IMG/VR virus record: IMGVR_UViG_3300035190_001906
Location: 1 to 58,751 of that record
Length of the DNA stretch: 58,751 nucleotides
Direction: 5' to 3' (one strand)
From: a virus
Taxonomy: Duplodnaviria; Caudoviricetes
Made by a program: the position numbers and the translations under genes. Every line of letters begins with the position of its first letter. Position 1 is the first letter of the stretch. Of this stretch, positions 320 through 24,300 are shown one piece after another. The notes under the pieces were generated by a model. That model had not been told where the DNA came from. It was given only the letters and a program-made list of their open reading frames with translations, and ran no database searches.

Positions 320-3300
320 ATGGAAGAAACAGATCGCTACGGCCTATTCGCGCAATACGACTTTGAGTTGACGGGTGCATCCTTGAAAAATATGGCATCC
401 GTGCGATCGCAATTGTCTGGATTAGAGAAGGGAATTGCCAGGGTTGCCGATGCCGTTAATAAATCGGATTTTGGCCGTGGGTTAGAATCTGCATCTCGTC
501 GCGCTCAAAAATCTACCTCCAAAGCGGGTACAGAAATTGATGAGTTAGCTCAGTCCTTGAAACTTGCTGAGAAAAGGCTGAAACCTCTAAAAAGAGAGTT
601 TAGAGCCTTACGAGCCGAAATTCGGAATGTTGATTTTGGGGGGGTAGAAGATAAGGGTAAGTTCCGACAAGCTGCACGGGAAGTCAAGAATTATGTCGCT
701 ACACTTAAAACTTTAGAATCCCAAATTGAGGGGAATACCGCAGCCGAACGGGAATTTGCTGCAACACTAAAAGCGCAACAACGTATCTCTAGTTCCAAAC
801 TTGAGATGCAGATGCAACAACGAACTGCTGCCCTGTCTGCTCAAAGGATTGGGGAGTTTTCTGCACTCAGAGATATTGGTAGAAATGCCCTGATTCCGAT
901 TAATCAGGAAATAGATAAAGGGGTTAATCTATTCTCCGCCTTTGATGACTCAATGGCTTCCGTTGGAGCAGTGTCGGGAGCAACGGGAAAAGACCTGGAG
1001 AAGTTGCGCCAAACAGCTAAAAATTTAGGAGCTTCAACTCGCTACACTTCTTTCCAAGCTGCGGAAGCTGAAAAATATTTAGCAACAGCCGGGTTCAAAA
1101 CGGCTCAAATTTTAGGGACAGTTTCTAATGCCCTGGAATTAGCTTCTGCTGGGGAATTGGACTTGGCTCGGTCTGCCGATATTTCCTCAAACATCCTGTC
1201 CGGTTTTCGACTCAAAGCGGAACAGTTGTCTTCCGTTGTTGATACCCTTGCCCTAACTTCCGCCTCAGCCAATACGAACATCGAACAATTGGGTATAGCT
1301 ATGACCTACGCTGCACCCCCCGCATCTTTGTTCGGAGCTTCGATTGAGGAAACCTCAGCTTTTATTGGGGTCATGTCCAACGCTGGTATTCAGGCAGATA
1401 AAGCGGGTACGGCTGCTAGGAGTGCATTTTTACGTTTAGCTTCCCCAGTTAAACAAGGGAAAGTTGCTTTAGATTCATTAGGGATTTCAACAATTGATAG
1501 TTCTGGCAACCTCAGAAACTTTGTTGATTTGATGTCTGAAATTTCTGATAAATTAGCCCTCGATCCTGAAACCCTGAAAAAAATTCAGATGGCAGGGGGA
1601 GATTTAGAGTTAATCGAAAATGCTATTCCTGATAGTAAAAAAATTGAAGCCCTCAAGGGAATTTTTGGAACTACCGGAATTTCTGGGGCAACCGCAGCTT
1701 TAACTCAAATGGCTGAATTTAAACGTTTAAGTTTGGCTAACTTAGCTTCCAGTTCTAACACTGACCAGATAACCCAATATTTCAGTCAGATGGGAGTCAA
1801 GGTTGCCGAGGGTCAGGATATTTTCACTGCGATTGGTGAACAAGCCCCAGATTACCAAACCGCAGCTTCCTTAATTACCCAAGCTAATTCTCAATTAATG
1901 CAGTCCAACCTGCAAACCCTGTCCTCCCTCCAACGCAATAAACTTTACGAATATTTCAAGGTTTCTAAGGACAAAGATCTATTCACTGAAATTACCCGCT
2001 CAACCCAAGACTCTCAAGAATCTGTTTCCCGACTCAACACCGCTATGAGTTATTTAGGAGTTGAGATGAAGGTCGAGACTCGCGCTGCCCGTCAAATGGC
2101 AAAAACGATGGAGGATAACTTAGCGGGGTCATTTAGAGCATTAGCGTCCGCCGCAGAAGCCGTTTATATTAACTTAATCGAACCACTCTCCCCAATTCTT
2201 CGACTTGTTATTAATGGCATAACTAAGGTTTTGTTAGTTGTTGCTAATGCCCCTTACCCAATCCGTCTCTTAATTGGATCTGTTATTGGGTTGACCGCAG
2301 CAATGGCGGCAACTGCTGTAGCTGTAGGAACCGTTGGATTTTTCTTGTTCTCGTTTTCTCAAGCCGCTGCAACGGCCGCGATCGCATCTCAAACCCTTGC
2401 ATCTGGATTAATACCCTTAACTGGCTTTTTTCAATCCTCGATGCTGGGATTTATTGGTACTAACCCCCTGGAGACTTTCTTTCAATACAACACTGAGTTA
2501 GCTAGTGATTTTTCGTTGGCGTGGAAAAGAACCAGTCAAAAAACCGTTGGGGGATTGGGGGGGATTTATAAAGCCGTTGTCACTGTCACCAAAGCCACCT
2601 TCCTGTTGTCACGGGCATTTTTGTTTTCACCCATAACGTTATGGGTAGGATCGTTTTTACTGTTAAACGCCTTCATTGAGCAAGCAATTCCAGGGTTCAA
2701 TTTACTCGGTTCCGCCCTGAGTCTTGTTACCGCACCCCTGGGATTTATTTGGGGATTAATCAAGGGTATTGGCCAATCCTTGATGGAAGTATTGGGGATT
2801 GTCGGGGGCGGAACTATTGGTGTTTTAGCTGCTCCGATTCATACCTTCACTAACGCCCTGAATAACGCCCTGGAAACTTTTAAATCATTTTCAGATCGAG
2901 GGGAAGAACTGGGATTGTATTTGGGACGGTCGATTGTTGCCCCGATTGAAAACGCTGCAATTTTGATTGATACAATTTGGCAACAAGTTTTGGGAGGGAT
3001 TCAACTTGTTTCTATGCTTGCGGTGATGTGGATACAGGGGGCATGGCAAGGATTTGTTGATCGCTTCAAACAAATTCTGCAACCTGTCGTTACTATCGCC
3101 CTGACTATTGCCCAACAATTAATTAATGCCTTAAACCACAACCCTACAGAACGGATTCCCGAAGCATGGCACAAAGCCGTAACCTTAATTAAAGGATACC
3201 TGTCGGACTTATTAAAATTTGCTCAAGATATCGGGAATAGAATTGCTGAAACTGGAATTGCGATCGCAACTTATTTCCAAAACCTAATTCAATCCATCGC

Positions 3301-6300
3301 TAATACCGTTGGTGTTATTGGCACAGTCTTTAGAATTGTTGGCAAAGGAATATCCCTACTCTTTAAAGCATTTGTTTTTATTGAAACCAAGGCAATTCAA
3401 GGGATTTTCTTGTTAGGGGAAGCAACAATTTGGCTATATAAAACCCTGTTTACCGTTGGACTTCAAGCCATCGACATCCTCAAGAAGACTTATGATCAAG
3501 CCTTTGAGACAATTCAAATTTTTAGCTCCGCCTTTGGATATGGAGAATTTTCACCCGATGACCGTGCGATCGCACGTCAAACCTTAATTCTCGGAACCCT
3601 AAATAGCATTGGTGCTGCCTTTGGGTTAGTAGCTCAGGGCGGAAGAAAGGTAGTTGATGTGTTCTATAGTATCAATAGCTTAGTGACTCAATCCATTGAG
3701 AAGTTTGATTTATTAACCCTGGCTTTGATGACCGCAGCATCTCTCCCTATGACTTTGATTGGGATGTTAGATGAAGCTGCTCATTTAATTATTCCAGAGT
3801 TAGCGTTACTGACTCAACCGGGATTATTCAAAGCCCTAGTCTATGCTATGCCTGGAATTATTGCCACCGCTACGGCAACTGGGATAACTCAAGGATTCCA
3901 AAAAGGGTTTACAAATGCGATCGCTAAACTTCCAGATCAATTAATTGGAACCGTTGACTGGGTACACAGCTTAATCCCTCAAGATTTGCGTGATGAAATT
4001 AATTTCGCTTTGTCTGACGTATTTAATCGTCCGGTTGATACCAGCGCAGTGTACACCCAAACTCGCGGTTTCCTAGATAATCAATTTAGATCGTTTACCG
4101 ACTACCTACAGCAAGTTGGTCAAACCATCAAAGAATCAAGTATTGCATTTCGGGAGTTTCTCAAGCCGTTCCTAGAATATGACATTCTAGGGGTTGCAGT
4201 TATCCCAGCCCTGACTACAATTATTCCCGCGTTTCAAGCCTTCTGGGAAGTTTTAAAAGCTCCTTCTGTTGCTGGGATTCTGAAATACCTAACTTTTACT
4301 GTTCTTCCGGCTTTAGGTCAAACTATTTTAGCGATCGCAGAATACCTTAATAACATTCGCTTAATCGTAATGCTTCCTTTTGTAAGCGTTGCTGTGCGGA
4401 TGATTCAAATTTTAACCGAGAAAATTCAATCCTTAATTCCTCAAATCTCCAATCTAAGGAAAACTTTACTGGCATTATCTAAAACTTTAGGGGTATTAGC
4501 TGTTCAAGGAATTGCTTCATTTTTACGGACAATTCCTTATGTGGGAACTTTCTTGGCTAACAACTTCCTGTTAATTGTAGATGTCATTGCTACCAGCTTC
4601 CCAATTTATATCAACCTGTTGAAACGCTTTATTTCCGTTGATATGTTGAAAGCGTTAATTCCTGCCTACGCCAAGGTTGTTAAGGGAATAGCCACAGGGA
4701 TTATCTATATGTTTGAGCAGGGATTTAAACCCCTAGCTCAACTATTATTCAAAGCCCTGAATCCTTTTGGGACGTTTAAGTTATTGGGTTTATATTTTAA
4801 AACTCAAGGCTTTAAAGGATTAATTAAGACCCCACAGTTATTAGATGTCTTCGGAGTTCTTAACTTTATTAACCCGTTTGATGTCCTGTTCTCAGTTTCT
4901 AAGAATGTAAATGCGTTCGTTAAACTATTCACGAATAGTGCAGAATTTTCTTATGACATGGTTTTGAAAAAGCAGACGATGTTATTCCAGTCGCTTAAAA
5001 CTAATAGCCCTGCATTTTATAAATATATGCGAATGGGAGCATTGATTCCCTTAGAAGAATTATTAGAACAATCTCCTGCCCTGGTTAAATTCTTTGTTCA
5101 ATTGACCAGGGGATTGATGATGATTTCCCCAATCGTGCAAATTGTTGGGCGAATAGCTTTAGCATTTACGGTTTGGTATCAAATCCTTAAACCCGTGAAT
5201 GAGGAGATGTTGAGCGCGATCGCTGCTACAGAAGTTATGGGGTATAAGCTGAAATTACTGGCTGATACCATTCGAGTATTGCGGTTTTTGGTGGTAGATG
5301 GTTCAGATGCGTTTATCTGGTTTGCTTTCTTTGTTCCCAAGGCGATTAATGCTGTTGTCGTTGCCTTCAGAGTTTTAGGGGATACTGCCTATTACGTCCT
5401 GCACGATGTCATTAGTTTAGGGATTTTAGGATTTAATGCTTTAAAAATTACCGTTATTAATCCTCTCGTAGTTGCCTTAATTGGTGCAACTGTCGCTTTA
5501 AGGGCTTTCTTAACTGTTGTCCAATACGCCTTGATATTTATTCGCCTAAAAACCCAACAATACGGTGATGCTATTCACAAAGGGTTTGGGGCTGTGATGC
5601 AGCAAATAGCTAGTGATGTTTGGGGTGTAATTAGTTTTCTTGGTATCCAACTTAGTAACGCCTTTGTTCTGATAACTTCTGCTGTTCACAGGACTTGGAA
5701 ATCTTTGACTGGTTTGGTAGGTGCGATCGCGCATGAAATTTATTTAATTCTCGTTGACCCCGTTGGGGAATTTAATCGACTGTTGATATTGTTGGTGGGA
5801 GAAGTTAATAACCAAATTGAAAGAACAGGAACCCTATTAGACCGACTCCCATTCAAATCTTTAATTGTATTAGTCCAGAAGTATTGGCGGGAATTGATGT
5901 TTGCAGGAGGGATTGCTTTGCAATTTGTCAAAGCCCTAAATCCTGCGGTGCGGATTAGTTTGTTGTTAATAGATTTAGCTTTAGCGTTAGTCAATGAATA
6001 TGAGACTGGATTTAAGCGATTAGATGCAATTATTCAGGCATTAAGTCATCCTATTGCATTGTTAGATTCCATGATTAAGGGACTGGTTAGCTTCCTGCAA
6101 GGAGGTTTCATCCCCTTAGATGCTGCGGATTGGATTTCCAAATTTATTGCTGGCTTTATCAAGATGATTCCCGTTGTCATGGGAGGATTCTTTGTTGTAG
6201 CTCTCTTGATTAAGCGAGATGTGGGGGGAGCCTTCCAATTGGTTTCCGACAAGGTATTGTTATTTATTGGTCGGATTATCCAAGCGGTTGATGCAGTAAA

Positions 6301-9300
6301 ATCCCTTGGCTATTCTATTAGTCGTATTTACAAAGGGGATTTAGTTCAAATGAACCTTTTAAATACTATTCACGGTGTCCGTTCTAAAGATAATTTCGGC
6401 CCAATTCAAAACCCGTTTGCCTATTCTCAAGATCCCGTTCAACAACAATACGCCGTAGGGATTGGTGATCAACGCAAACAGAAAGCACAAGCCCTGTTGA
6501 GCTACCAGAAAGAACTGGACTACATGGCTAGACAGGAACAGAAAAGAGCAGAACGAGAATTAATTCGGAGAGCTAAAACGAGCCATCCTGACTTAATGAA
6601 TCCAGAGCATAGTTTTTACATGGATTCCCCTGATCAACCTGGGGTTAAAGTTAGAATGTCTGGCGCACAGGTTGAGAAGCGTCGAAATCGGTTTGGAATT
6701 GAGGGATATCAAGTAACCCAATTGGGTCGTAGCGTTATGGGCGCTGCAAACCAAGGATATAATGCTTTTCGATATGGGGAAAGTTATGAAGCAGAGGAAG
6801 CTCGGAAACAAGCTGCGAAAAAATCAGGACTAGCTAGTGTTTACCAACAATATCACGGTCATGATCTAAAACCCGATCACTTAGCTAGGTTATCAGCAAC
6901 AACCAACGATGAAGAAAATATATTTACTCGCAACAGTCTAGCCCCACTTCTTAGATCATTCCAAGATTTCTTTGAAAATATTCATGTTAAAGATTTTAAG
7001 GTCAATGATTTCTATGTTGGGCGTTTAATAGACACTAAATTAAAGAGTGGAATGATGACTCCTAAATCCTTGGATTACCAAGTGGAATCATTTTTGAATC
7101 CGCCCGTAGGAATGGCAAGTTTGTCATCAAATCATCAGGAAGTTTTAAAAAAATATGTGCCAACAGCATCTATACCTACACCGTGGGAACATTCCGAGAT
7201 GGGTGTGAAAGGACTGTACGGCTTGGATGCGTCTAGGTTTGAAGTTGAACGTGAGAGAATGATAAGGGAGTATAAAGAAAGATTAATCAAGTCCCTTGAT
7301 GATCCAAAATATAGTAGGACACACTTTTTTGGTACAGATATGGGTTCGGGCATTGGTACTAGCAATATTGGAGGAGGATCTGTAAATCAATTTTCGTCAG
7401 TGTCAAATGAATTAACACGCGAATTAAATCAAATTATTAGTAATGCGTTTGGCAAAATAAATAGCGGTACAGATAAAGAAACAGCAACTCGTTTAATAAA
7501 AGAGTTTCAATTAGAATTTCAACAATATCAAGCTAAAATGATGGCAAATAATTTGCCTTCTACTCATCGAGATCAGTTCTTGGATTTCACTGAAGCAAAT
7601 TCTAGGGCGATTACGATGGGAGATAACTTTTCTGGGGGTAAAATAGCCACTGGATTTGATGTTATCACTCAAGGGATTACTAACGTTCGTTTGTCTGCTA
7701 ACAGAGCTTCCGGTGAATTAACGGATGAATTGGGCGCAACACGAAAATCATTAATGAGTTTAATAGTGGAATCAACTGGGATTCCTAAAATGCTTGAATC
7801 TTTAAACATTAATAATTTATTAGGTCGCCAAGTTCGGAGTACCGAAAGAAAAGTCAATCGCAACAATCGACAAGCCGAGAAGTTCAAAAGACTTGCCCTT
7901 TATCACCGAGAAACTGGTCTGAGAGCATTCCTGGCGAACAAAGGACATACGGACAGTAATCCTGATACTGCGTTAACTAATTACGGGACGGCGAATAATG
8001 TTGGGGAAGATACGATTTCTGTTTTAAAAAATTGGAGGCAAACAGGTAAATTCCAGAGGGAATTAAGTAGTAAAGAACAGGGGCATATTACTGATTTTTC
8101 TACAACTATAAGAACACAACTGGAACGCTATAACGAGACACAACACTTAGATAATAAAGTCAATGATTTGAACAGCCTTGCTAGGATGATGAACCGACTT
8201 GCTTTGGATAAGACAAAACCGGATTTCAACTCTGGCCATGTTCAGGATTTAGTGAAATTTTTAGAACACGGCGTTATGGCTGATGACGCTAAAGGGAATG
8301 GTATTATCCAAAAAAGGCTGAATGAAATTTTATTGAGTATAAATAGTGCATTAGGTACTGGTGGTAGTGATGCGTGGACTTCTACGATGTTGGAAGAAAT
8401 TAAAGGTAATATTGGTAGGAATAAAGAACCCAAGGACAAAGATAATCTACTTAAAATTATTCGACAAGTTATGTTGAGTGACAAAAAGTTTGATCCAGAT
8501 AAGTTTTTTGTAAGAGCAGATAAAGATGCGATCGCAAAAGAAATGGGATTCCGCTACGAAAGTCAATTGCGAAAAATAGGTGAGACTAAACTTGCTAATC
8601 CCATTCAACAACTCAAGCAGTCCGTCAGGGATTATATCTTCCAGTTTGAGGAAAATATGCTTACCTTCCATCTGGAAAATATAGATACTTTGGGCAGGGC
8701 TAAGGAATTTTTACTGAGAAGATTGAAACTAGAGAAGCTCCCATTTGGGAATATTGCCGGGCGTTTAGATTCTATTATCAATGCTTACTCATCTTTCGCT
8801 GACAAAATTAAAGATCAATATTTAAGATTAAAAGGCACGGGCAAAGAAAACTTAGGCAAGATGAGTACATTCTTCAATGAAAGGATTAACTTTAAATCTT
8901 CAATTGATAGAGCTATATCTAAATTCAAGACAGCTAAATCAGGCAATATTGAAGGTTTCTTGGAGATGGTTAGTGAACGACAAAAAACAAAAGTAACTCG
9001 CCGTTTGCTACAGGCTAATTTCTATGGACAAATGTTAACGTCTGGTGTGGATCAAGCGGATGCACGGAAAGCTATGTTGGCTCTATATAAAAGACAGGGT
9101 GATAGCAAAACCTTGAGACAGGAGATGAAGGGATTTGATCTTGAGGATACTACCATCGCATCCATCGAAAAAGTTTTATCTCAAATCACAAACTTAAAGC
9201 AAGATGAGATTTCTAGGCATCTTATGGACAAACAAGGATTGAGCTTAAAAGGGATGATGCCGATTCAATTCTATATTGCTCAAGAAATTCCTGGGATTTT

Positions 9301-12300
9301 AAAAGGGTTGTTTAAGGATGTCCGTGCTATTACTGGTGCAGCAATTAAGGTTTCTAAAATAGATAAAATCATTGGCAAAATCTTTACCGATGTTGCTGCT
9401 GGTTTGCAACAGACAATTGCACCCAAGATGAGTTCCTTTGTGTTCCGTCAAGCTCGTATTCTTTCGGGTTTATCCCTCTCTGTCTCTAATATTATCCGAC
9501 GCACCTTTGGGGAGAATGTTATCGAAAAGTGGTTTGTTGGTTTATCCAAGACTTTATTTGATAGTTCCATAAAACTTAGGGCAGATATCAAAATATTAGG
9601 AAAAGACTCTAAATCTTATACCGCTAAATTATTAGATGCAGGTCAATTCTTATTTAAAACTTTATCAAATGGAATCATATCTGCTGCTAAAGCCCTAGCA
9701 AATCCTAAGTCTATTTGGATATCTATTCAAGGATTCTTTGGTAAGGTTAAAAACTTCTTCGGTAAATTATTCCCTAAACGCCCTGGAACGTTAGCGGAAG
9801 TTGATCAACAAATTGCTCGAAATCAAATGATCAAGACAAGATCTGAACGTTTGATGGGAAGCAAGAATCTTGGTGAAACCCAAAAAGCTAAAGCCAATAA
9901 ACTATATCAATCTAGTAATCGGGAGTTGGATCGTTTACAAGCAGAACGATTTGCACTTACCAGCACTCCCGAAGCAATTGCAGAGAAAGTGATGGGTTTA
10001 TCGCATAAAATTACACAGAAACAAAGTACGGCTCTTAGAAGAAAATCGCAAATTGAAGCCGTAGAAAAACCTTTGTCTGGGTTGGTAGATCCTGAATACA
10101 AAAAATCCGCTCAAGCCTATGAACAATTGCAAGAAAAACACAGGAGGATTAGGGAGCAATTTAAAGCCGAAAATAAACAGTTAATTGAGGGTGATATAGG
10201 TGGTGATCACCGTGCAATCCCCGCAACACTTGACGCAAAGAGAAAACAAAACAAAGAAATCAAGGGAATGGATTCCTCTATCGAAAAGTTAGTAAAGGAT
10301 CTCAATAAATTGAGAGCAAAAGGTTTGAATAATAAAGCACCAGAATATACAGAAATTCTGTCTAAAATCAAGGATTTAGGTATTAAGAGAAAGAAAGCGT
10401 CTTACGGTAAAATGAGTCCTGAAGAAATAATAGAATACGACAATATTTATGATGAGATGGAGGTTCGTATTAAGAAGTTGGGACAGTTAAGTAAACAGAT
10501 TCAAAAATTAGAGAAGCAAAACCCTAATCTTAAACAGCATCGGAAAAAGAGTTATGCAAATACAGTTGGTGAGATTGAATCTCAAAGATCGACACTAAAA
10601 TCTAATTACGAAAATACTTTAGCAGAAATAGAAAAACTAAAAGAACAGAAGAAATTAATATCTGGCAGAACTTCTCCATTCTTGGTGTTTATGACGGATT
10701 TAGCTGTGCTTACACAGAAAGTTGGTCGTAATATTGTCGATCTTGCTACCAATCAAAAATCTAAGAAAATTGATCTGTTTAAACAAACAGCTAAAGATTT
10801 CATGAAGTTTAAGGAAAAAGTCACTCCTTTAGTTAATGAACTGTTTGCTGAATTGATGCAGAAGGGAGCTAATGCAACGGCTCGATTATCTCAATACTTT
10901 GAAAATGTTGCTCGTAGAAGCGCGATCGCATGGAGACGCTCACAACGAGAAGTTGAAGGTAAAACCTGGCCAGGTTGGTTAAAAGCTGCTTATCGAGTCG
11001 GGAAAACCTTGGTGATGACCTTGAATCATGGGACAACTGACGTTATTTCTGAGGCTTGGGGACGAACCCGAATCGCGGCTACCGAGAATATGCAGCAAAT
11101 GGTTGAATCCGCCCATGAAGCAGGGACAGGTATTCAACGAGGGTTAGGTCAATCCCTGGAAAAAACAGAGGGATTTTTCTCAAGATTAAAAGCCGGATTA
11201 ATGGATTGGGCTTTCCCTGTTCGTAAAATTAATCGTCAAATCGAAGCATTAAAACCCGCCCATCAAGCTGCGAAAGAAAGTTATGAATCCCAGAAGGTTT
11301 ATACCTTCAAAGATGAACGGAAAAAACAACAGAAATTTGGGAAATTCAATTCCCTGAATTTACAAATTGAGCAATTAGAAGCCCAAAAAGAAGCTCAACA
11401 GATGATGAACCGATTAGGTCGGTTTATGGGCGGTTTATTCCCCGGTCGTCAATTTAAAACCCCACAACAATATCCGAAATTAGCTCGAATTGCCTTAAAA
11501 CGTTTTCATCGTCGCTTCAATAACTTCTTTGGAGGATTATTTAAAGCAAAAAGCAAGCATCTCCAACTTCCTGCGATGAACTTTAGTAGTCCTCGTATTA
11601 ACGTCGGTCAGTCAATGGAAGATGCTTCTCGGAGAGTAGTCTTAGCGTGGAAACGTGCGGGTCGAGAAATTCGAGGCAAGGAATGGCCGACATTAATTAA
11701 AGCTGCTTCTCGCGTTGGGAAAACTTTAGTTAACTTCCTAAATCACGGCGCTGCTGATGTTACGACCGATGCCTGGGGTCGTACCCAACGCACCACTGCC
11801 CACTCAATGCACCAAATGGCAGAAACCGCCCATCAAACAGGGGGACAAATTCAAAGTACATTTGAACGGGCAATTAATAAAACTATTCATCTGTTTGGAT
11901 TGTTAGGTAAAAGCGTTGGTAACGTTGGTAGAGCAGGGATGGCAATTGGGGGTGTGGTTTCTGCCACTGGGTTTGCTGCCCAATCAGTGTTCTATTCCCT
12001 TAGTAATATTGGCTTAATTGACGAAGAAACCAGTCAGTCTCTCTACAAAGTCACGGAATTAATTAGTATTTTTGGGGCTGTCACTGGACTTGGAACACCA
12101 CTAATAATGGCATTCACCTCCTCGGTATCGGCACTTGGTACTGTTGCCGCAACGGTGGGGACAGCAGTAATGGGATTGGGACGTGCGATGTCCCTTGCTG
12201 TGGGATTAGGCGCATCTCCCTTCGCTCCCTTGGTATTAGGAATCGGAGCCGTGAGTTTAGCTGTATTTGGACTGTACAAAGCCTTTAATGCTAACTTCAT

Positions 12301-15300: not shown

Positions 15301-18300
15301 AGAAGCTATCAAAGCATTGCCCGAAACACAAAAAAGTTTAACGGAAAAACAATCTACCCCAGGAAATAAAATCGCAGGTGGTTTTAATCCATTGGGGCAA
15401 GAAGGATTTTTGGGGATTGGGGGGAATCAAAAAGGGTGGAGAATGGATCAAACTATCTATAATTCGGGAACTACTCTTGGTGGGGTAGAAAGAGACTTAA
15501 CATCCGCAGCTAACTATATCAAAGGCTTTGGTGGAAACTTGTTAACTAGCACACTTGATTTATTCCAGGGGGGTGAAGCATCAATTCGAGATAAGGTAAC
15601 ACAACAGGTATCAGCACGTCAAAATCAGTTAATTTATGAAATGGCTAATAATAGTATTTCTGAAAGTTCGGCTTTACGTTCTGAATTTTCTAAATATATT
15701 ACTAGGGGACAATATGGGAATCCAGAACTAACACAAGAAGGTCAGACTTACCTAGAGAAAAAATTAGCCACAGAATATCGCGATCGCAAAGGAGCATTCT
15801 CAAACGAAATCCTACAAAATTTTGCTGGTAAATCTGGTAAAACAGCAGATCAGGTTCATAATATTGGTTTACAAGGACAGCCAATTATTCGAGAAGCAAT
15901 TAAAGCATTGCCTGAGAAGGAGAAAAGTTTAGCTGAAAAAATAGCCCCTCAGATTGACCGTGTTGTTCAATCAATAGATCAATCTTCTAAAATACTTAGC
16001 GGTATTATTCAGTCAATAGATCAAACCTCTAAAATACTTAGCGATATCTTAAATGAATTTAAGATTCCTGACGAAATCAAACCTTTGGTAGAAATACCAA
16101 TTCAATCCATGCCTCAGTCTCAATCCCAACCCAAGCAAAGTTTGTGGGATAATTCAACTAATTTTGTAGCTGATTTATGGGGTAAAGTTACAAGTTATTT
16201 TGATGGATATTATGCCAAAACAAAGGTTCCATACAAAAATCCGCAAAAACTTACTGAACCCAGTATTCCAGATTTTAAAAATAATATTGTTCCTTATCGC
16301 CCCAAGAGTGTTGGTGATGTTGTTAACCCGATTATTAAAGAAAAAACCAGTAAATTAATTCCCGTTGTCCAACAAAAAGCAAGTCAAATAATTCCTGCTG
16401 CTCAACAAGCCGTTAGTGGATTAGCGGAGCGTTGGCAAAAACATCGGAAAAATGAACCCGTTGTCGATGACTTAGTTACCAACGCAGAAACCGAGTGGGA
16501 TAATAAGGAATCTTGGTGGGAGAAAAACTTTAAATCTATCCGAAAATCTTGGGGTCTTACATCTTCCACAGTCTCAAAAGGGATTGATAAATTAGTTGCC
16601 CAGGCTCCTGATCAGGGATATGAATTACAAAAAGGATTAGCTGAAGGTTCTCCAGGGCCTACTTTCTATATTCGGAAATACTGGAAGAAAACCATTAATC
16701 AAGTCACCGACTGGATGGGTGACTTGGCGGGGAGTGCCGCTAAAACCGGAATTTCCCTAGCTCAATCTATGGGAGTGGGAACTGTTAAAACCGCGATCGC
16801 TATTACCCCATTTGTCTCGGAAGCAACTAAAAATGAAGCCATTCAAAGTATTGAGGCGGGGATAATCTCAATTCAAGATCGATACGATTACCTAGAAGCT
16901 CAAGGATTTGGAAATCTGGGGGTACTATTTGAACCTGGTGCAGCGCAAGTTACCGATGCCCTGCAACTTCTGGGAGGAGATATCGCTGATTTTGCCAAGC
17001 GATCAGTCAATGCCTTATTAACTTTGAACTTTGGGGAACTAGCTCAGGCTTCTAAAGACTTTGGTGGGAACTTAGCCTTTGCCCTGAAAGGATTGACTGC
17101 CGGATTTAATAGTATGGGATTAAGCGCGATCGCAGCAGGTGCAGCCGTTCTCACTGGCATGGCTCCGGCAATTATTACAATTGGTGCGATCGCATTTGGG
17201 GCTGCGGTAATTCTGGCGAACTTCCTGGGGATTCGTTCAATCCTGAAGGGTATTATTCAAATTCTGGTTGCCACAGGGAAAATAGTATTCTTTACATTTA
17301 TGGCTGCCGGACGAGTCCTGAAAGGATTTAGTTTAATCCTGAGAGGATTGTTTGGTGATAGCGAATTGATCAAACAAGGGATTGCCGAAATTAAAGATGC
17401 GTTTCAAGTTCTGGGTCAACAACTCAAATTAGAGTTTAAAGCGATCGCGCAAGGATTCCTGTCTATTGGAGAGGGATTGAAAATTGCTTTAGTTCAAATC
17501 TTCCCGTTCCTAAAACAACCGCTTCAAGATTTAAAACAATGGTTTGACGAATTTTGGTCGGTCTTTGCCCTCAGTCCCGAAAGGGCAGGACGGATGGCTG
17601 CTGAAGCTTTGATTGACTTTGTTAAAAATATCTTCCGAGCATTTAATAACCTACGTCTTTCTGTTATTAGCACTTGGCAGAAGATGATGGTTTGGTTCAA
17701 GATACAACTTTGGCAAGCTAAAGATTGGGTTGTTGAGGCATTCCGTAAAATGTCTCAGCTTGATTTTAGTTTCCTCCAAGATATTCCCAATGCTTTGTTA
17801 AACGGCTTTAAGTGGGTTGCAGAAAAAATTCCTACTTTATTCCAAGGCACAGGGGACGGAATCCTCAGTCGGATACTGAACCCGATTCGAGATGGATTTA
17901 ATGCGATCGCGCAATTTGTTAAAGGGTTTAGCGATCGTATTAATGAAGAACTCCAACTGGTATTCCCTGGATGGATGAAATCTTTGGGGCAATCCATAAT
18001 CCCTTTATTTGACACACTCTCGAACGGAGCGCAGGGTTTACGAGATGCAATTGTAAATCTAGGAGCGCAGTGGGTAAAATTAGCACTGGGATTTGATCTA
18101 CCAATCGGATATCCTTTCTTTGAATTTTTAGATAGTCTAGTACAACGCTTCCAGTCAACTGTTGTAACCATTGAAAAAGCCTGGTTAAAATTCTTTGTTA
18201 ATGCCGGGAAACTAGAATGGAATCAGATTACCGAAGATATTGGAAATACTCTCAAGTCAGGGTTTAAATCTCTAGCTACTTCCGTTGGTCAACTTTGGAA

Positions 18301-21300
18301 TCAGTTCTGGTCAACGGTTTTAGAAGCACCAACATTAAAAGGAAAAGTAGACGCTTTTATGTCTAACTTCTCCTTTTTGAGTATTCTAAATTATGTTGAT
18401 GATGTTGCGATCGCCTTTGATAGACTCAGGGAAAAAGTCGGTCAAGTCACTTCCTGGTTATCTAATTTAATTACAACTTGGAATCAAGTTACCGATAAAG
18501 CTCCTAAACTCAAACTTGATATTGATACCGCATCCCTAGAAACTAAAGCTAATAATTTAATTGATAACGTTCAGGGTAAATGGAATCAATTAGTTAAATT
18601 CTTTGAGAATCCTAAATGGCCGACAGCGCGACAAACTTGGCAAGGGTTGTTAGATGGTTATGGGTGGCTGCGATCGCAGTTCCGCACTATTACCGATTGG
18701 TTTGGACGTACCCCCGAAATGTTAGCCCCTTTCTTTAATCAGTTGAAACTTGGGGCTGATAAGGTTGGTGAGTTTCTATTCAATATGGAATTGCAGTGGG
18801 TGAAATTAGTTTTAGCTTTTAATCTTCCCCTCCCCATGTTCTATCAATTGTTTGAATTTATTAACGCAATTCCGAAGTTGTTTAAAGCGGGAGTAATTCA
18901 AGTTGAAACCAGTTGGACATGGTTGGCTAACGAAATTGCTAATTTAAACTGGAAAACCTTAACCCATGTTTGGAACGGATTTAGTAAATTATTTGGGTTG
19001 CTGGGTACATCCTTGGATTTCGCCGAAAATAAATGGCGAGAGTTTCAATCTTATATTTTGACTTCTCCACAACTTCTTGCACCTATATTCGAGAAACTCA
19101 GAAATGGGTTACAAGGGTTTAGTGGTCTTATTGTTAGGTTATTTGAAAGATGGAAAAATTTTGCTACCCAATTCCATCTTCCTCACTTAGAAGGACTTTT
19201 TACTCCGTTGTATGCACTTTCCGAAATTTTTCAAATGGTTTTAACCGGAATTGAAACCCGATGGGAGAAATTTGCAACTTGGTTAGGGACAACTGAATTA
19301 TTTAGTTATGTCCTGGGTGGGTTGAAAAATTTATCCTACGCCTTCAGTACGGTCACGGGATTTATCGGTAGACATTGGAATACATTGGTTGAGTTTTTGC
19401 GGTCAACTCAATTATTGGTACATTTAGGTAATGGTATTGTTCTCTTAGTTGAATTTGTTGATAACCTGTCTACTACCATCAGTAACCTAAAACAGCGTTG
19501 GAATACCTTCTTGGAAGCCAACGAGACAACAGTTAAACGAATTAAACAGGCGTGGGAAGGATTTACGACAAGTTTCAAAACTATCCTCAAACCAATTGTT
19601 GAGTTTGCGCTAGATATTGCTCAGAAATTAATTAACGCCTTAAACCATAACCCGACTGAGAGAATCCCCGAAGCGTGGCGTAAAGCGGTTGAATTTATCC
19701 AAGGAAAATTGTCGGGATTGCTAGACTTCGCTAAGGACATTGGTAAACAATTGGTCTTTGCGTTGGTCGGGAAGGATAATGTTACTGGATTCTTTACCCG
19801 TTTTAATAAGGAGTTGGGCGAATCGAACTCTGTTGTCACGGAAATCAAGAGTAATCTTCGCGCTTTGTTTAACGATGTTAAGACGGTTTTCTCTAATGTA
19901 TTGAGTGCAATATCAGAGATTTCTGCTATTGGACTCCCTCTTATTAGAATAATGCTTGAATCCATTAAAACGGAATATACAGTTTACTTTAATTCAATTG
20001 TTACTTTATTTAAAAACACAAAAACTTATCTGGCAACCAGTTTTACCAATGTATTGACGGGAATAGCAAACTCAATAAAATTTGATTTACTGATTGCATC
20101 TTTGGGCGAAGTTAAAACACAAGTAGATGAACTGTTTAGAACATTATCTGGTGTTTTCTCTAGTTTTGGGCAAGCATTGGTAAACTTCAAATTTGGATCG
20201 GGTAGAATACTGAAGTTTATCAAGAGCTTTGGTGAAACTGCCGTAAATGCTGTAAGTGGTTTGTTTTCTGCGATTGGTCAACAATTAGGAAGTGCTGCGA
20301 CCGAGATAAAATCGGGAATAGGATTAGCGTTTAGTGGTTTTATTACCCAACTTAGAACACTCCGAACAGGAATAGAAACAACGCTCACATCAATCTCTGA
20401 ATATTTCTCTAAATTTGGAGCTATCAAGGACAAATTTATTGGTTTTATCTCAGTGGTCTTTAGTGGAATCAAAGGTTTTATTTCTGGTATTGTTGACTAC
20501 TTCAAACAGTTCTTTACTGAATTAGTCGCAGCAAAAAATGTAGGTGAAGCCTTTGCGATTATTTTAGGCGGGTCACTGAAAGGAATTTTAAATACAGTTA
20601 ATTTCCTGTCTTCTGCTTTTGTCCAGTTGGCTTCTATTATTCTGCACCCTATTCAATCTATTAAGAAATTTGGCGAGGTTACGGGATTGACCGACCTGTT
20701 GAAATTATCTATTGAGGGGTTAACAAATGTATTCAAAACCTTAATTTCTGTAGTTGGTTTCTTTATTCGGTTGGCAGTCGATGGATTGGTATTGATTTTA
20801 AAAATTACAGTTAGATTGTTTCAAGCAATCCTTGACCCCATTACAGCTTTCCGTGATTTAGATAAAGGAATTACATCGGTAGTGCGATCGCTTGGAGAAG
20901 CTGCTCCAGGGTTAAAACCACTACTTGATATTTTGGATTTTACAAGAAAAATATTACAAGATTTAACTATAAATTTTGCTAAATTCTCAGCAGGATTTGG
21001 TGTTGGCTTTGTGAAAGGGTTTATTGGCGAGATGGAAAATCTCTACAATGCTTTGATTAAATTTAAAGACCCTTTGATGACAATCTCAGAAGCCTTTGGA
21101 AAAATATTTTCGTTTATCACAGAGAGTGTACCTAAAGCATTCTCTGAAATCTCAAAATTATTTACTCCCGTACAAAAAGTAGTGACGGAGGTTAACAATG
21201 GATTGACGGCTGTTGCGCCAGCGACAACCGCGATCGCTAATAGCATATCAACTGTTGCGCCAGCGACAACCGCGATCGCATCTGGTATGTCAACTGTTGC

Positions 21301-24300
21301 GAATAGTGCGACAACCGTTGCTAATGGTGTTTCAAACGCTGCTACGAATATAACGGCTGCTGCTAATGCTGTACAGGGGATTACCACTGGGGTTACAGAA
21401 CTTGGTAATAGTCTGACCAATGTTGGCGGTGAAATTGGTCAGACTACCACTGCGATCGCGGAAACAGCAAAACAGATAATTAATATATTCCGCATTGGGG
21501 AAGATTTGGGTCGTAAATTTGGGTCAGTTAGTGCTACTGCTTTTACATCAGTTATCAATGTTACAAGGGATTTGATTACTGTGTTTGCAGATTTACTAAA
21601 TAAATATGCAGTTCCTTTCTTAAATACTTTAGCCAGAATAGCTAAGTTTGTAGCTTACTTCTCGAAAGGTTTATTCACGGGATTATTCACAGAAATATCT
21701 AAAGTTACTCCTGCCTTCAAGGAGATTGGGAGAGCAATCCTCAAAATACTGGGGGCATTAAAACGACTCGCTCCTATTATTGCTACTGCGATCGCAGCGT
21801 TTTATGGGTTTAACGCTTTATCTCCTGTTGTTGATTTTATTGGTCATATTTTAAATCACTTTGATTTATATCCTGCCGCGATCGCACTTGTAACAGGCGC
21901 AATCGGAACATTAGTTTTAAATTTCAAAAACTTATTTGATACAACAAAAAGCTATACAGAAATTGCTGAAAGTTTAGGGAATAAAATTGGTGAGATATTC
22001 GGGGGGATGGTGAATCTAGCTATTAAATCTATTCAAACTATTGTCTCGGTTATTGCGGAGGTGTTAGACGCGGTTTCTAAAATACCCAACGCAATCCTTC
22101 ACCCTATTGAGACGTTTGAATCTGTGATGACAGGAGCGGGAGATGTTATTTCCGATAAGTTTGATGGGGTTACTCAAGGGATTGGGGGTAAGTTTCAGGG
22201 AATGTTTAATGGAATCAAGAAGCGTTTAGGTCTATTTGTTGAAGAAACTGAAGTTGAAGGGGGAAGCGTGGAACAAAACTTATCTAACGATCCTCCTGGC
22301 CCTACTTACATGATTCGTAAGAAGTGGTTTGAGATGTTGGATATGATCGGGGATCGAGTTGAAGATTTCACGTCCTTTACTAAAAAACAAGGACAGAAGA
22401 TTCAATCCGCAGTTACAATCTCTCCACAAGTATCTTTAGGTGATCAAACTCAATCTTTGCGGAATCAGTTTGGAGTAATTCAACAAATTCAACAGGCTCA
22501 GGCAGATAGCGTTCAAAATTTAGGTAGTAATGGATTGCGAGGAGTTTTAGTTTCAATCAATTCCTTGATGTCTAATTTTTCTGGTCAACTTAAACCATCG
22601 CTATTTCTTCTGAATGAATTTGTTGATGCGTTTGTTGATATTAAAACCTTGTTACCCAGTCTCCAAATGGAGATGATAAATTTCGGAAAAGCCGTCGCTA
22701 TTTCAAATTCAATTGCTGCTGGAACTTTTTCTGATTTAGCGATCGCAATGAATTCTTTTCGTTCTTCAAGCCTCCCAATGCTACCGTCCTCAGATCGTTC
22801 AAATCTCCCTGTGTTAGCATCGCCAGATCGTCTAAATTCTTATTCTTCTTATTCACAGTCTGATGTAATTGACGTAGAGTTTAGGGTACTTGGCACGGAA
22901 CCCATTCCCAATATTTCTGATGGTGTTCAAGGTTTGGATGGTGGGTTACAGGGATTGCGTGGAACATTAATTTCTGTAGGTTCCCTGTTATCTAACTTCG
23001 CACCCGAATTAGCAACTCCGCTTTTTGTCCTGAATGATTTTATTGATGCGTTTGTAGATATTAAAGCATTGCTTCCAACCCTGGAGGCGGGCGTATTGGC
23101 TTGGGGAAATTCGATCGCGGCTTCTAACTCATTCGTTGGCGGAACATTTACTTTACTCAAGGCTGCTGCATTAAAAGCCTATACAACCTTGCTTGTTCCC
23201 ATACTGCCATTCTTGCCAATTATTTTAGGGGTTATTGCTGCGGTCGGATTATTCTACTTAGCCTTTAAATCCAACTTCTTAGGAATCCGTGATTTAATCT
23301 ATGGTGTGGGTTGGGCATTTAAGAAGTTCTTTGGGGATTTGTTCGGAGGCTTCTTTGCTGCGATTGGTAGTATTTTTACTACGATTGACAGGGAAGTAAG
23401 AGCGATCGCTTCTGTCTTTGGGGAATTAGTTTCTACTGTTATCTCAATCTTTGACCCAATCCTGAAACTATTTGGTATTGATGTCGGCAACAGTGTTTTG
23501 AATCTATCTGATGTTTTATCGGCAGTTGTCAATGCTTTGCTGTTCCCGATTCGGATTCTAGTAAAATCCCTTAACTTCTTAATTACAACTATTTCCTGGG
23601 GAATCCAATTAATAGTTAAATCGTTGATTTTTACTGTCAACGTTATTAAAACGATTTTATCCTTTACCTGGGAACTCATAAAATCAATTCTAATTATTGG
23701 TGCAACTATAGGAGGGATTGTAGCAGTCCTGAACTTTGGTGCAGTTCTAGCTGGGATTGTCTCTGCTTTTGCAACGATAGCAGGTTTAATTGGCTCTATT
23801 AGTGTGATCGTGAGTGGAATAATTTCAGGGATTGTATTTGTAACACCCTTTTTGATTACAGGGGTTGCGTCAGTATTGACAATGATTGGAGGAGCTATTA
23901 CTGGTATTGCGATCGCAATAGCTCCAATTCTTCCTGTAATCCTCTTGATTTCAGGTGTTTGTGCTGTAATTATTGGAGTTGCTTTTGTTATCAAGAAAAT
24001 ATTTGAAGGAATTTGGTGGGTAATTTCTTCTGTTATTAACTCGATTTCATCTATTCCTTTCGTCGGTGGTTTATTTGGGGGTCAACCTAAAACAGAAAAA
24101 CCCCCAGGTTATGCAACTGGGGGTTTAGTTAAAGGATCGGGAACAAGTACAGGAGATCGTATTCACGCAAAACTCTCACCTGGAGAATATGTAATTAATG
24201 CCTCCTCAACTAAAGCCAATCTTCCTTTACTTGACGCAATTAATACAGATAAAGCAAGCGTAATATCAACTCCTCAAATCATGGCATCGCCTACATTTGC

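What the first reader, a model, noticed from the sequence alone, without database searches (positions are those of the whole stretch)
3119..22328. Invariant 17-aa motif LINALNHNPTERIPEAW divides the TMP into modules
Seen: five exact protein-level copies spread over 16.5 kb, with many synonymous codon differences and diverged flanks. There are also two NHG variants and two related motifs, GLAEGSPGPTFYIRKYW (about 16634) and NLSNDPPGPTYMIRKKW (about 22277). Exact amino-acid conservation despite silent divergence indicates selection on the peptide. Inference: the motif is a repeated protease-cleavage, chaperone-docking or helix-break signal. The TMP may have grown by serial duplication of one module and may be processed as a polyprotein or specify several tail lengths.
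Basis: partly seen in the sequence, partly recalled or inferred. Interest (0 to 1): 0.8.

Follow-up and report, generated by a model that had tools for sequence, protein, structure and literature searches.

The report
Conserved node in giant tape measure
A 17-residue peptide kept letter-perfect five times in an 8,060-residue phage tail tape-measure protein is the helix break at the centre of an old repeated coiled-coil module, shared by a family of giant tape measures from phages of cyanobacteria; it is more likely a structural node than a cutting site.

Summary
ORF 320-24502 (+) encodes an 8,060-aa tape measure protein (TMP). It holds five exact copies of LINALNHNPTERIPEAW, two NHG variants and two SPGPT/PPGPT variants. 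Silent sites are as diverged inside the motif (pS 0.73) as in its flanks (0.73-0.81), while replacement change is about 0 against 0.34-0.50. This is old duplication under strong purifying selection, not gene conversion.

The motif does not divide the protein evenly. It is the core of an ~80-aa module that occurs nine times at irregular spacing. Each module is two ~39-residue amphipathic helices with 11-residue periodicity, joined by a predicted 5-residue loop at H-N-P-T-E.

The module is absent from Pfam and NCBIfam. It recurs 2-10 times in most proteins of a family of 101 retrieved, mostly 4,000-7,845 aa, labelled TMP or cyanobacterial. Module number rises with length (Spearman 0.85, 19 complete proteins).

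The family is almost cysteine-free: 88 Cys in 442,720 aa. Of these, 33 replace the motif's His.

The best reading is a structural node of the trimeric TMP rod, possibly binding an ion or proton. Cleavage, chaperone docking and multiple tail lengths have no support here.

The parts
320..24502 (+). Tape measure protein gene, 8,060 codons plus stop
   Evidence: Single open frame. N-terminal PhageMin_Tail PF10145, E 2.6e-40, and TIGR01760 tape_meas_TP901, E 1.3e-54. The N-terminal part matches annotated TMPs in 1,205 phage records.
1007..1573 (+). PhageMin_Tail core domain (aa 230-418)
3020..3250 (+). Module A1 (aa 901-977); exact motif at 3119-3169
   Evidence: 95.9 bits to the family module HMM
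10910..11146 (+). Module B1 (aa 3531-3609); NHG variant motif at 11009-11059
   Evidence: 68.5 bits
11627..11866 (+). Module B2 (aa 3770-3849); NHG variant motif at 11726-11776
   Evidence: 75.5 bits
12341..12577 (+). Module A2 (aa 4008-4086); exact motif at 12437-12487. Follows a hydrophobic block at aa 3963-3989.
   Evidence: 99.8 bits. AlphaFold2 target.
13148..13378 (+). Module A3 (aa 4277-4353); exact motif at 13238-13288. Follows a hydrophobic block at aa 4228-4252.
   Evidence: 80.1 bits
14315..14545 (+). Module A4 (aa 4666-4742); exact motif at 14405-14455. Follows hydrophobic blocks at aa 4529-4607.
   Evidence: 84.6 bits
16535..16771 (+). Module C1 (aa 5406-5484); SPGPT variant motif at 16634-16684
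   Evidence: 43.6 bits, i-E 1.3e-15
19532..19759 (+). Module A5 (aa 6405-6480); exact motif at 19628-19678
   Evidence: 99.7 bits. The only Pfam model touching a module is a sub-threshold Elf4 hit here (22.6 bits, cut-off 27).
22175..22414 (+). Module C2 (aa 7286-7365); PPGPT variant motif at 22277-22327
   Evidence: 28.2 bits, i-E 8.7e-11
33629..36619 (+). Tail sheath-like protein (996 aa); context showing a contractile tail
   Evidence: phrog_23 tail sheath, E 7.7e-13
36633..37214 (+). Tail tube-like protein (193 aa)
   Evidence: phrog_4542 tail tube, E 1e-4. Phage_T4_gp19, E 7.3e-5, below the Pfam cut-off.

Best explanation
The 17-mer is the most constrained part of an ancient ~80-residue module of the tape measure protein. 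It covers the last turns of a ~39-residue amphipathic helix (LINALN), a five-residue capped loop (H-N-P-T-E) and the first turns of a second ~39-residue helix (RIPEAW). Both helices have an 11-residue (hendecad) hydrophobic repeat that stays nearly in phase across the loop.

Inferred mechanism: in the tail lumen the TMP lies as a three-stranded alpha-helical rod. Each module is a node where the coiled coil is deliberately interrupted. At the node a fixed set of polar or titratable side chains is displayed: Asn, then His (Cys or Glu in relatives), then an Asn/Gly/Ser cap.

The nodes would fix the register of three very long chains. They would also give defined break points for unfolding and refolding when the TMP is expelled.

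Nine nodes are kept by purifying selection in this 8,060-aa protein, and more nodes occur in longer relatives. Shown: the repeats, the selection, the family, the periodicity and the His/Cys pattern. Predicted: helix-loop-helix. Inferred: the trimeric node function.
For: Selection. Silent divergence is equal in motif and flanks, with no replacement change in the motif.

Module. Nine copies are detected by one HMM. Self-comparison shows flanks at 33-65% identity.

Family. There are 74 representative proteins at E<=0.001 among 1.84 billion, 36 of them at E<=1e-30, with lengths up to 7,615 aa. They give 264 module hits in 76 of 77 proteins. A further 46 giant relatives were found, named 'TP901 family phage tail tape measure protein' or labelled as cyanobacterial MAG proteins.

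Conserved positions, 196 modules outside the window: W12 0.98, W53 0.96, L41 0.89, A30 0.83, N42 0.70, P45 0.70, I49 0.68, T46 0.66, H43 0.64.

Periodicity. The hydrophobic period peaks at 3.65 in each helix, with about twice the power at 3.50 (59.5 vs 29.4; 49.1 vs 24.8). The peak is 3.70 with power 96.5 when both helices are analysed together, so the phase is roughly kept across the loop.

Structure prediction. Model 1: helix 6-46, loop 47-51 (= H N P T E), helix 52-86, mean pLDDT 78.7. Model 2, with the upstream hydrophobic block: helix up to the His, loop N P T E R, helix, pLDDT 65.6. Position 44 is N/G/S in 161 of 185 modules. By my own knowledge these residues favour a left-handed helix C-cap.

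Chemistry of the node. Position 43 is H 118, E 29, C 20, D 2 of 185. In 101 family proteins (442,720 aa) there are only 88 Cys, and 33 of them sit at this position. In 17 proteins of 1.7-7.3 kaa every Cys is there. 50 proteins have no Cys.

Scaling. In 19 apparently complete homologues (2,650-8,060 aa) module count correlates with length, Spearman 0.85.

Established background (phage JBD30 paper PMC11445458, passages read). TMPs fill the tube as a trimer. Their resolved C-terminus is a coiled coil. Methionines of the three chains coordinate a putative ion on the tail axis. The expelled TMP is proposed to refold into a channel.
Against: No experiment bears on this protein. The AlphaFold2 models are of moderate to low confidence (pTM 0.36 and 0.35) and do not say whether the two helices are collinear or folded back as a hairpin.

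By the hendecad register, His43 is not at a core position of helix 1. Its placement on the threefold axis is therefore an assumption.

In SPGPT-type modules Glu43 co-occurs with Arg50 and Lys/Asn52 (21 of 29). That could be a simple salt bridge within one chain.

A purely structural node should tolerate change at exposed positions. Yet all 17 residues, including positions that vary in the family (47, 48, 51), are identical in the five copies here. This hints at a common external ligand.

The spacing of nodes is irregular, with gaps from about 240 to 2,600 aa.

The Cys counts include related sequences (clusters at 50% and 90% identity), so they are not independent events.
Confidence: 0.5

Rival explanations
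1. Chaperone docking site. Each motif is gripped by a tail assembly chaperone, or by the TPR proteins encoded on either side of the gene. This keeps the hydrophobic 8,060-aa chain soluble and extended while the tube polymerises.
For: All 17 residues are identical in five anciently diverged copies, including positions that vary in the family. A common external ligand would explain this. Belcaid et al. 2011 (PMC3271669, passages) state that conserved W/F at fixed positions of TMP repeats serve as anchors for small auxiliary proteins, and the module has two near-invariant Trp. TPR proteins lie next to the gene on both sides: window 29180-31663 (-) and L009:4792-6546 (-).
Against: No tail assembly chaperone family was recognised among the 8 ORFs upstream or the 20 window ORFs scanned. 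None of the 10 neighbouring ORFs examined in 6 related loci is a TPR protein. Within-protein motif identity is only slightly above between-protein identity at equal flank divergence once the window's lineage is removed (0.78 vs 0.72-0.74), so there is little sign of co-evolution with a lineage-specific partner. The conserved residues lie on the hydrophobic repeat face. The W/F period-11 pattern of that paper is absent (0 hits).
Confidence: 0.15
2. Membrane-insertion unit used after ejection. The hydrophobic block plus the two amphipathic helices refold into part of the trans-envelope channel, and the capped loop is the hairpin turn.
For: Four of the five A-type modules start 15-60 residues after a strongly hydrophobic, Gly/Ala-rich block. 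The same block-plus-module arrangement occurs in relatives. Expelled TMPs are proposed to insert into the membrane and refold into a channel (PMC11445458, passages). The two helices are of equal length and show large-to-small residue complementarity if paired antiparallel (my reading).
Against: The module helices are amphipathic and about 39 residues long, not membrane-spanning hydrophobic segments. A5, B1, B2, C1 and C2 lack an adjacent hydrophobic block. Mutual-information analysis gave no clean antiparallel contact ladder and was dominated by the three motif subtypes. This reading is compatible with the node reading and is not exclusive of it.
Confidence: 0.15
3. Proteolytic or self-cleavage site. 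The TMP is cut at each motif into several pieces, either by a phage protease or by Asn cyclisation at Asn-Pro. It would then act as a polyprotein or give several tail lengths.
For: TMPs of some phages are cleaved: JBD30/T5 at one C-terminal site on ejection (PMC11445458, passage). The loop N-P-T resembles the N|PTH self-cleavage loop of FlhB/YscU (recalled, not tested). Exact repetition is typical of protease sites. A predicted exposed loop would be accessible.
Against: Candidate scissile residues are not conserved. Position 44 is Asn in 71 of 185 modules (Gly 59, Ser 31). Position 45 is Pro in 130. Position 47 is E/D in 88. Position 51 Glu is at 0.24. The conserved residues are hydrophobic-face and capping residues. 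No protease family was found in the 20 window ORFs or the 8 upstream ORFs scanned. Nothing suggests several tail lengths.
Confidence: 0.07
4. Recent duplication or gene conversion keeps the copies identical, without selection on the peptide.
For: Repeats in one gene can be homogenised. A relative (L014) carries an exact 1,578-bp tandem duplication with two modules.
Against: Silent sites inside the motif are as diverged as in the flanks (pS 0.73 vs 0.73-0.81). There are 4-13 silent differences per 51 nt. No identical DNA tract exists. The same 17-mer occurs 10 times in 7 other proteins.
Confidence: 0.01

Closest known systems
TP901-1-type phage tail tape measure proteins (Pfam PF10145 PhageMin_Tail; NCBIfam TIGR01760)
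   Same: The N-terminal core domain matches strongly. The protein is alpha-helical with hydrophobic blocks. The gene lies in a genome with sheath, tube, baseplate, fibre and portal genes.
   Different: It is several times longer than the two ordinary TMPs I fetched (879 aa in Vibrio phage X29; three adjoining ORFs of about 480-600 aa in Staphylococcus phage StB20). The module is absent from all 50,697 phage records searched and from Pfam and NCBIfam. The X29 and StB20 TMP ORFs have no [SN]P[STG] string.
Thermus phage P23-45 gp96, the 'giant' 5,002-residue TMP
   Same: A TMP far above normal size that defines an extraordinarily long tail: 800 nm according to the preprint abstract seen in the listing. 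Other details come from the abstract and passages of PMC10770324. It has transmembrane domains.
   Different: P23-45 is non-contractile, and its TMP carries an N-terminal virion RNA polymerase with a DFDGD motif and a metallopeptidase domain. Here no DxDxD string exists, no enzyme domain was found, the phage has a sheath, and the protein is about 3,000 residues longer.
W/F-marked 11-residue tandem units of TMPs (Belcaid, Bergeron and Poisson 2011, PMC3271669)
   Same: Repeated units inside a TMP, an 11-residue period and conserved Trp markers (passages).
   Different: Their pattern of seven [FW] at period 11 gives 0 hits here, and even four in a row gives 0. Here the 11-residue period is in the hydrophobic face generally. 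The unit is ~80 aa, dispersed rather than tandem, and centred on a capped loop.
C-terminal coiled coil of siphophage TMPs (JBD30, T5, 80alpha) with an axial ion
   Same: Trimeric coiled coil on the tail axis. Side chains of the three chains (Met in JBD30) hold a putative ion (PMC11445458, passages). This is a precedent for the ion-node reading.
   Different: That element is single, C-terminal and Met-based. No sequence similarity was detected: PDB profile searches gave nothing significant, and the best TMP chain, 9d93, had E 0.29.
FlhB/YscU N|PTH self-cleaving loop of type III secretion switch proteins (recalled)
   Same: An N-P-T tripeptide in a loop, in a system that also uses a molecular ruler.
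   Different: The His is on the other side (H-N-P-T-E). The setting is helical rather than a beta-turn in the FlhB domain. No such domain was found. Asn44 is not conserved. This is a resemblance only.

Membership tests
Phage tail tape measure protein, TP901 family | N-terminal TMP core domain (PF10145 / TIGR01760) above the curated cut-off | tested here: met
   138.9 bits against cut-off 33.2; 185.5 bits against cut-off 28.8
Phage tail tape measure protein, TP901 family | Encoded in a tailed-phage genome with tail genes | tested here: met
   Sheath, tube, P2-I-like baseplate (weak), fibres and portal are in the window. However, the gene is flanked by opposite-strand genes, and no chaperone pair was recognised upstream.
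Phage tail tape measure protein, TP901 family | Long alpha-helical protein with hydrophobic / transmembrane-like segments | tested here: met
   Hydropathy blocks; all-helical predictions
Phage tail tape measure protein, TP901 family | Protein length sets tail length (about 1.5 A per residue) | not testable with these tools
   No virion images exist. Extrapolating from P23-45 (5,002 aa, 800 nm; listing) and JBD30 (about 1,158 aa, 180 nm) gives about 1.25-1.3 um.
W/F 11-residue tandem-unit TMPs (Belcaid 2011) | [FW]-x(10) repeated seven times | tested here: not met
   0 hits for 7, 5 or 4 in a row. 6 hits for 3 in a row against a shuffled mean of 3.3.
TMP-fused virion RNA polymerase (P23-45 gp96 type) | DxDxD metal-binding signature in the TMP | tested here: not met
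   No DxDxD string in 8,060 aa
FlhB/YscU-type NPTH autocleavage | Conserved N-P-T-H loop inside the FlhB C-terminal domain | tested here: not met
   The motif is H-N-P-T-E. No such Pfam domain was found. Asn at that position occurs in only 71 of 185 family modules. Cleavage itself is not testable here.
Axial metal site of a trimeric coiled coil (His3/Cys3/Glu3) | Ligand residue restricted to H/C/E/D | tested here: met
   169 of 185 modules. 33 of the 88 family Cys are at this position.
Axial metal site of a trimeric coiled coil (His3/Cys3/Glu3) | Ligand at a core (axis-facing) position of a parallel trimer; metal present | not testable with these tools
   By the hendecad register the His is not a core position of helix 1 (my reading). 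No trimer model was obtained.

The most novel reading that the evidence does not exclude
Each module is a metal- or proton-binding staple on the threefold axis of the tape-measure trimer. Three His (three Cys or three Glu in relatives) hold an ion. This locks three 8,060-residue chains in register along a tail longer than 1 um. Loss of the ion or a pH or redox change at the cell surface would release the rod for ejection. This would be a 'metal-stapled tape measure', with the only cysteines of an otherwise Cys-free protein family reserved for the staple.
Probability: 0.15. Interest if true: 0.75.

Novelty: new variant of a known kind. Interest (0 to 1): 0.5.

Why it matters
How a tape measure longer than a few hundred residues stays in register, soluble and ejectable is not understood, because the lumen density of TMPs is unresolved in the cryo-EM work I read (PMC11445458). 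This family offers an extreme case. Its TMPs reach 4,000-8,060 aa, which predicts tails of 0.6-1.3 um, in phages of cyanobacteria.

The family also offers a small, expressible ~80-aa module with a sharply defined conserved loop. One residue of that loop shows a His/Cys/Glu pattern. If the nodes bind ions or a partner, they would be the first defined internal landmarks of a tape measure. The module HMM is also a practical marker for finding such phages in metagenomes.

If the nodes turn out to be only helix caps, the finding is a tidy example of purifying selection on a repeat and nothing more.

Tried and rejected
1. Trimer test: complex prediction with 3 copies of the module plus Zn returned 'no answer'. 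It is neither support nor evidence against.

2. Foldseek of the module model found 0 matches in PDB and one meaningless match in BFVD, E 8.2.

3. PDB sequence-profile searches gave nothing significant. The best TMP chain, 9d93, had E 3.5 and then 0.29.

4. I recalled a generic 'HSPS'-like TMP motif as a possible homologue. The four TMP ORFs fetched from two named phages have no [SN]P[STG] string, so I dropped it.

5. Mutual information between module columns was used to look for hairpin contacts. The top pairs all lie inside or next to the motif and reflect the A/B/C subtypes, so the result is inconclusive.

6. Concerted evolution within proteins: after excluding P0001 and P0004, within-protein motif identity is 0.74-0.78 in the 20-50% flank-identity bins (n=34). 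Between-protein identity is 0.72-0.77. The signal is weak.

7. TPR neighbours as a conserved partner: 0 of 10 neighbouring ORFs in 6 related loci are TPR proteins.

8. The ESM Atlas on two regions gave only TMP-like or unnamed clusters, scores 0.83-0.93, with recognition below the tool's mark.

9. tblastn of a 200-aa module window against 50,697 phage records found no match at E<=0.01.

10. The DxDxD RNA-polymerase signature is absent.

11. The Belcaid W/F pattern is absent.

13. Sub-range syntax for stored proteins is not accepted by align_proteins. Alignments A3 and A4 therefore use only window and locus DNA references (26 and 16 rows), not the roughly 200 modules known from the protein hits.

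14. Paper searches for the motif strings found 0 papers. Searches for giant or longest tape measures and for cyanophage tail length listed no description of this family (listings and abstracts only).

Full report
WHAT IS THERE

The window (58,751 bp, 40% G+C) is the whole genome held for this record. Its first 24 kb is one open frame, 320-24502 (+), of 8,060 codons.

The N-terminus carries the tape measure core domain: PF10145, E 2.6e-40, and TIGR01760, E 1.3e-54. It matches annotated tape measure proteins in 1,205 phage records.

The rest of the window encodes the following:
- a sheath-like protein (phrog_23, E 7.7e-13) and a tube-like protein;
- a weak P2-I-like baseplate protein;
- fibre proteins with S74 and Mtd_N domains;
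- a Dam-type methylase, a GH19-like protein, a TPR protein and a portal.

This is therefore a contractile-tailed phage. No capsid or terminase gene was recognised among the 20 ORFs scanned, so the record is probably incomplete. An independent contig (L009/L010, 100% identical over the first module) extends 7 kb further upstream and shows the same open frame.

THE OBSERVATION

The five 51-nt copies differ at 4-13 positions, with no amino-acid change. Across the 10 pairs:

| Region | pS | pN | aa difference |
|---|---|---|---|
| Motif (17 codons) | 0.73 | 0.017 | 0 |
| 12 codons upstream | 0.73 | 0.34 | 0.44 |
| 30 codons downstream | 0.81 | 0.50 | 0.69 |

The motif pN of 0.017 is a Leu codon path artefact. 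DNA copies are 66-84% identical to the reference copy over 85 nt. Recent duplication and gene conversion are excluded. The peptide is under very strong purifying selection.

THE MOTIF IS THE CORE OF A MODULE, NOT A DIVIDER

Self-comparison shows that each motif sits in an ~80-120-aa similar segment, with flanks 33-65% identical.

An HMM built from family modules finds nine near-full-length copies in the protein:
- five A-type (80-100 bits);
- two B-type, NHG (68-76 bits);
- two C-type, SPGPT/PPGPT (43.6 and 28.2 bits).

Their starts are aa 901, 3531, 3770, 4008, 4277, 4666, 5406, 6405 and 7286. Spacing is irregular, with a module-free stretch of about 2,550 residues after the first.

Four of the five A modules follow a Gly/Ala-rich hydrophobic block. 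Other, unrelated internal repeats also exist: aa 4895-5010/5093-5207, 5882-6354 and 7395-7489/7533-7630.

THE FAMILY

A profile of seven modules, scored against 1.84 billion representative proteins, found 74 proteins at E<=0.001 and 36 at E<=1e-30. Most are 4,000-7,615 aa. They gave 264 module hits in 76 of 77 proteins examined, P0001 included, and typically 2-10 per protein.

A second search restricted to 4,433-14,105-aa proteins gave 46 hits. These include a 7,845-aa relative and a 7,103-aa relative. Where a source gives a name, it is 'TP901 family phage tail tape measure protein' or a MAG protein of Cyanobacteriota, Leptolyngbyaceae or Microcoleus.

Eight viral contigs (21.6-199.8 kb) and six genome-collection loci encode relatives. 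Four of the six are in MAGs labelled cyanobacteria. The two others are one contig of the window's own phage in a bin labelled Acetobacteraceae.

The window has 67 GCGATCGC octamers against 0.26 expected. By my recollection this is the HIP1 signature of cyanobacterial genomes. The host is therefore most likely a cyanobacterium (inference).

The window's protein is the longest of the 101 family proteins retrieved.

No Pfam or NCBIfam model covers the module; the only touch is a sub-threshold Elf4 hit on A5. No phage record among 50,697 matches it. The motif strings occur in no paper of the library.

CONSERVATION ACROSS THE FAMILY

In 196 modules outside the window, the most conserved columns are: W12 (0.98), W53 (0.96), L41 (0.89), A30 (0.83), L37 (0.72), N42 (0.70), P45 (0.70), I49 (0.68), T46 (0.66), H43 (0.64).

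Three motif types recur:
- A: LINALNH[NS]PTxxIPxAW;
- B: LNHGAADVTxxAW;
- C: L[AS]E[NG]PT[FY]xIRxKW, or SPGP[ST].

The exact 17-mer occurs 15 times in 264 modules: 5 here and 10 in 7 other proteins. The 7,845-aa and 7,103-aa relatives keep four exact copies each.

Among 91 A-type modules of 57 proteins, motif identity is 0.72-0.79 even where flanks are 10-60% identical.

In 19 apparently complete homologues (2,650-8,060 aa) module number rises with length (Spearman 0.85), but modules make up only about 7% of residues.

STRUCTURE

Mean hydropathy of the module columns has its spectral peak at 3.65 residues in each helix. The power is about twice that at 3.50. The peak is 3.70 for both helices together, with nearly additive power. 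This is an 11-residue (hendecad) repeat, roughly in phase across the loop.

AlphaFold2 with 26 module sequences gives helix 6-46, loop 47-51 (H-N-P-T-E), helix 52-86 (pLDDT 78.7, pTM 0.36). With the upstream hydrophobic block and 16 sequences it gives an all-helical chain with the break at N-P-T-E-R (pLDDT 65.6, pTM 0.35).

Position 44 is N/G/S in 161 of 185 modules, as expected for a helix C-cap in left-handed conformation. Pro-Thr-Glu then fits an N-terminal cap of the next helix. Both points rest on my own knowledge of helix capping.

Whether the two helices are collinear or folded back could not be decided. Fold searches gave nothing, and covariation was dominated by the subtypes.

THE HIS/CYS/GLU POSITION

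Position 43 is H 118, E 29, C 20, D 2 of 185.

The family is almost free of cysteine. In the first 77 proteins there are 66 Cys in 299,232 aa, and 22 of them are at this position. In all 101 proteins there are 88 Cys in 442,720 aa, with 33 at this position. In 17 proteins of 1.7-7.3 kaa every Cys lies there, and 50 proteins have none.

The sequences are related, so these are not independent events. However, His and Cys states differ between modules of single proteins.

Glu43 goes with Arg50 and Lys/Asn52 in 21 of 29 cases.

A position that accepts only His, Cys or Glu in a Cys-avoiding protein points to chemistry: an ion ligand or a titratable group, rather than packing.

The JBD30 paper reports a putative ion on the tail axis held by Met residues of the three TMP chains (PMC11445458, passages). 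An axial ion in a TMP therefore has a precedent.

MOST LIKELY MECHANISM

TMPs fill the tube lumen as a trimer, seen as a ~20-A density, with a coiled-coil C-terminus. They are expelled and proposed to refold into a channel (PMC11445458).

I read each module as a node of that three-stranded rod. It is a capped interruption of a hendecad coiled coil that sets register. It is also a defined break point on ejection, possibly holding an ion or proton. Longer tapes carry more nodes.

What is shown: the repeats, the selection, the family, the periodicity and the residue pattern. What is predicted: helix-loop-helix. What is inferred: the trimeric node role. My confidence is about 0.5.

One fact strains this reading. 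All 17 residues, including family-variable positions, are identical in the five copies here. That would be more natural for a site read by one external partner. I therefore keep chaperone docking at 0.15, although no chaperone was recognised, the neighbourhood is not conserved and co-evolution is weak.

A post-ejection membrane hairpin (0.15) is compatible with the node reading. Cleavage (0.07) lacks conserved scissile residues. Conversion is refuted.

SIZE AND TAIL LENGTH

P23-45's 5,002-residue TMP is called giant and goes with an 800-nm tail (PMC10770324, abstract and passages; preprint abstract in the listing). JBD30 has a 180-nm tail and a TMP of about 1,158 residues.

The same 1.55-1.6 A per residue would give about 1.25-1.3 um here, for a phage with a sheath gene. 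This is an extrapolation. Unlike P23-45, no DxDxD signature or enzyme domain was found.

COMPARISON WITH KNOWN REPEATS

Belcaid et al. 2011 described W/F markers at an 11-residue period as TMP units and anchors for auxiliary proteins (PMC3271669, passages). Their pattern is absent here, although the 11-residue period is shared.

A 2026 paper links homorepeats and tandem repeats to TMP length (PMC13585406, passages). It does not describe such a module in the passages I saw.

VERDICT

The thing is a new, undescribed repeat module and node motif in a known kind of protein, within a striking family of giant tape measures. I set interest at 0.5.

Noticed in passing
window 320-24502: At 8,060 aa this is the longest of the 101 family proteins retrieved. 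It is about 3,000 residues longer than the 5,002-residue P23-45 TMP that the literature calls giant. The usual scaling would predict a tail of about 1.25-1.3 um in a phage that has a sheath gene.
   Followed up: partly
window, whole: The octamer GCGATCGC occurs 67 times against 0.26 expected. By recollection this is the HIP1 repeat of cyanobacterial genomes, which points to a cyanobacterial host.
   Followed up: partly
L009/L010 (genome contigs): The same phage (100% identity over the first module) lies on a contig binned in a MAG labelled Acetobacteraceae. All other relatives with labels are cyanobacterial, so this is probably a mis-binned phage contig.
   Followed up: no
L014:8807-9058 = 10385-10636 and 10001-10237 = 11579-11815: A related TMP carries an exact 1,578-bp tandem duplication containing one C-type and one A-type module. 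It is either a very recent duplication of a module pair or an assembly artefact.
   Followed up: no
window 17960-19380 (aa 5882-6354): A Trp-rich region holds three to four diverged ~120-aa repeats, with 8-9 Trp per 200 aa. Trp-to-Trp spacings are often 37-41 residues, the same as W12-W53 of the module. These may be degenerate half-modules.
   Followed up: partly
window 15005-15940 (aa 4895-5207) and 22502-23211 (aa 7395-7630): Two further pairs of internal repeats (59-63% and 48% identical) are unrelated to the motif module.
   Followed up: no
window 3270-10900 (aa ~985-3525): A module-free insert consists of a strongly hydrophobic half (aa ~1000-2000) and a highly charged half (aa ~2000-3500, K/R/D/E 23-38%). 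It has no recognisable domain. Shorter relatives (2.6-2.9 kaa) have only about 600 aa between their first and second modules.
   Followed up: partly
window 29180-31663 (-) and L009:4792-6546 (-): TPR-repeat proteins are encoded on the opposite strand on both sides of the TMP gene. This is not conserved in the six related loci examined.
   Followed up: partly
window 52980-54656 and 54656-55618: Two adjacent proteins start with the Mtd_N (major tropism determinant) domain. They could be targets of a diversity-generating retroelement; no reverse transcriptase was looked for.
   Followed up: no
window 24383-24502 (C-terminus of the TMP): The C-terminal stretch GGLVKGSGTSTGDRIHAKLSPGEYVINASS is shared in similar form by the 1,387-aa relative P0003. 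It is a second conserved element of the family and was not analysed.
   Followed up: no
L012:15738-16286 (-): A putative phage metallopeptidase (PF18894, E 9e-19) overlaps the end of the TMP gene in one relative. No counterpart was seen in the window.
   Followed up: no
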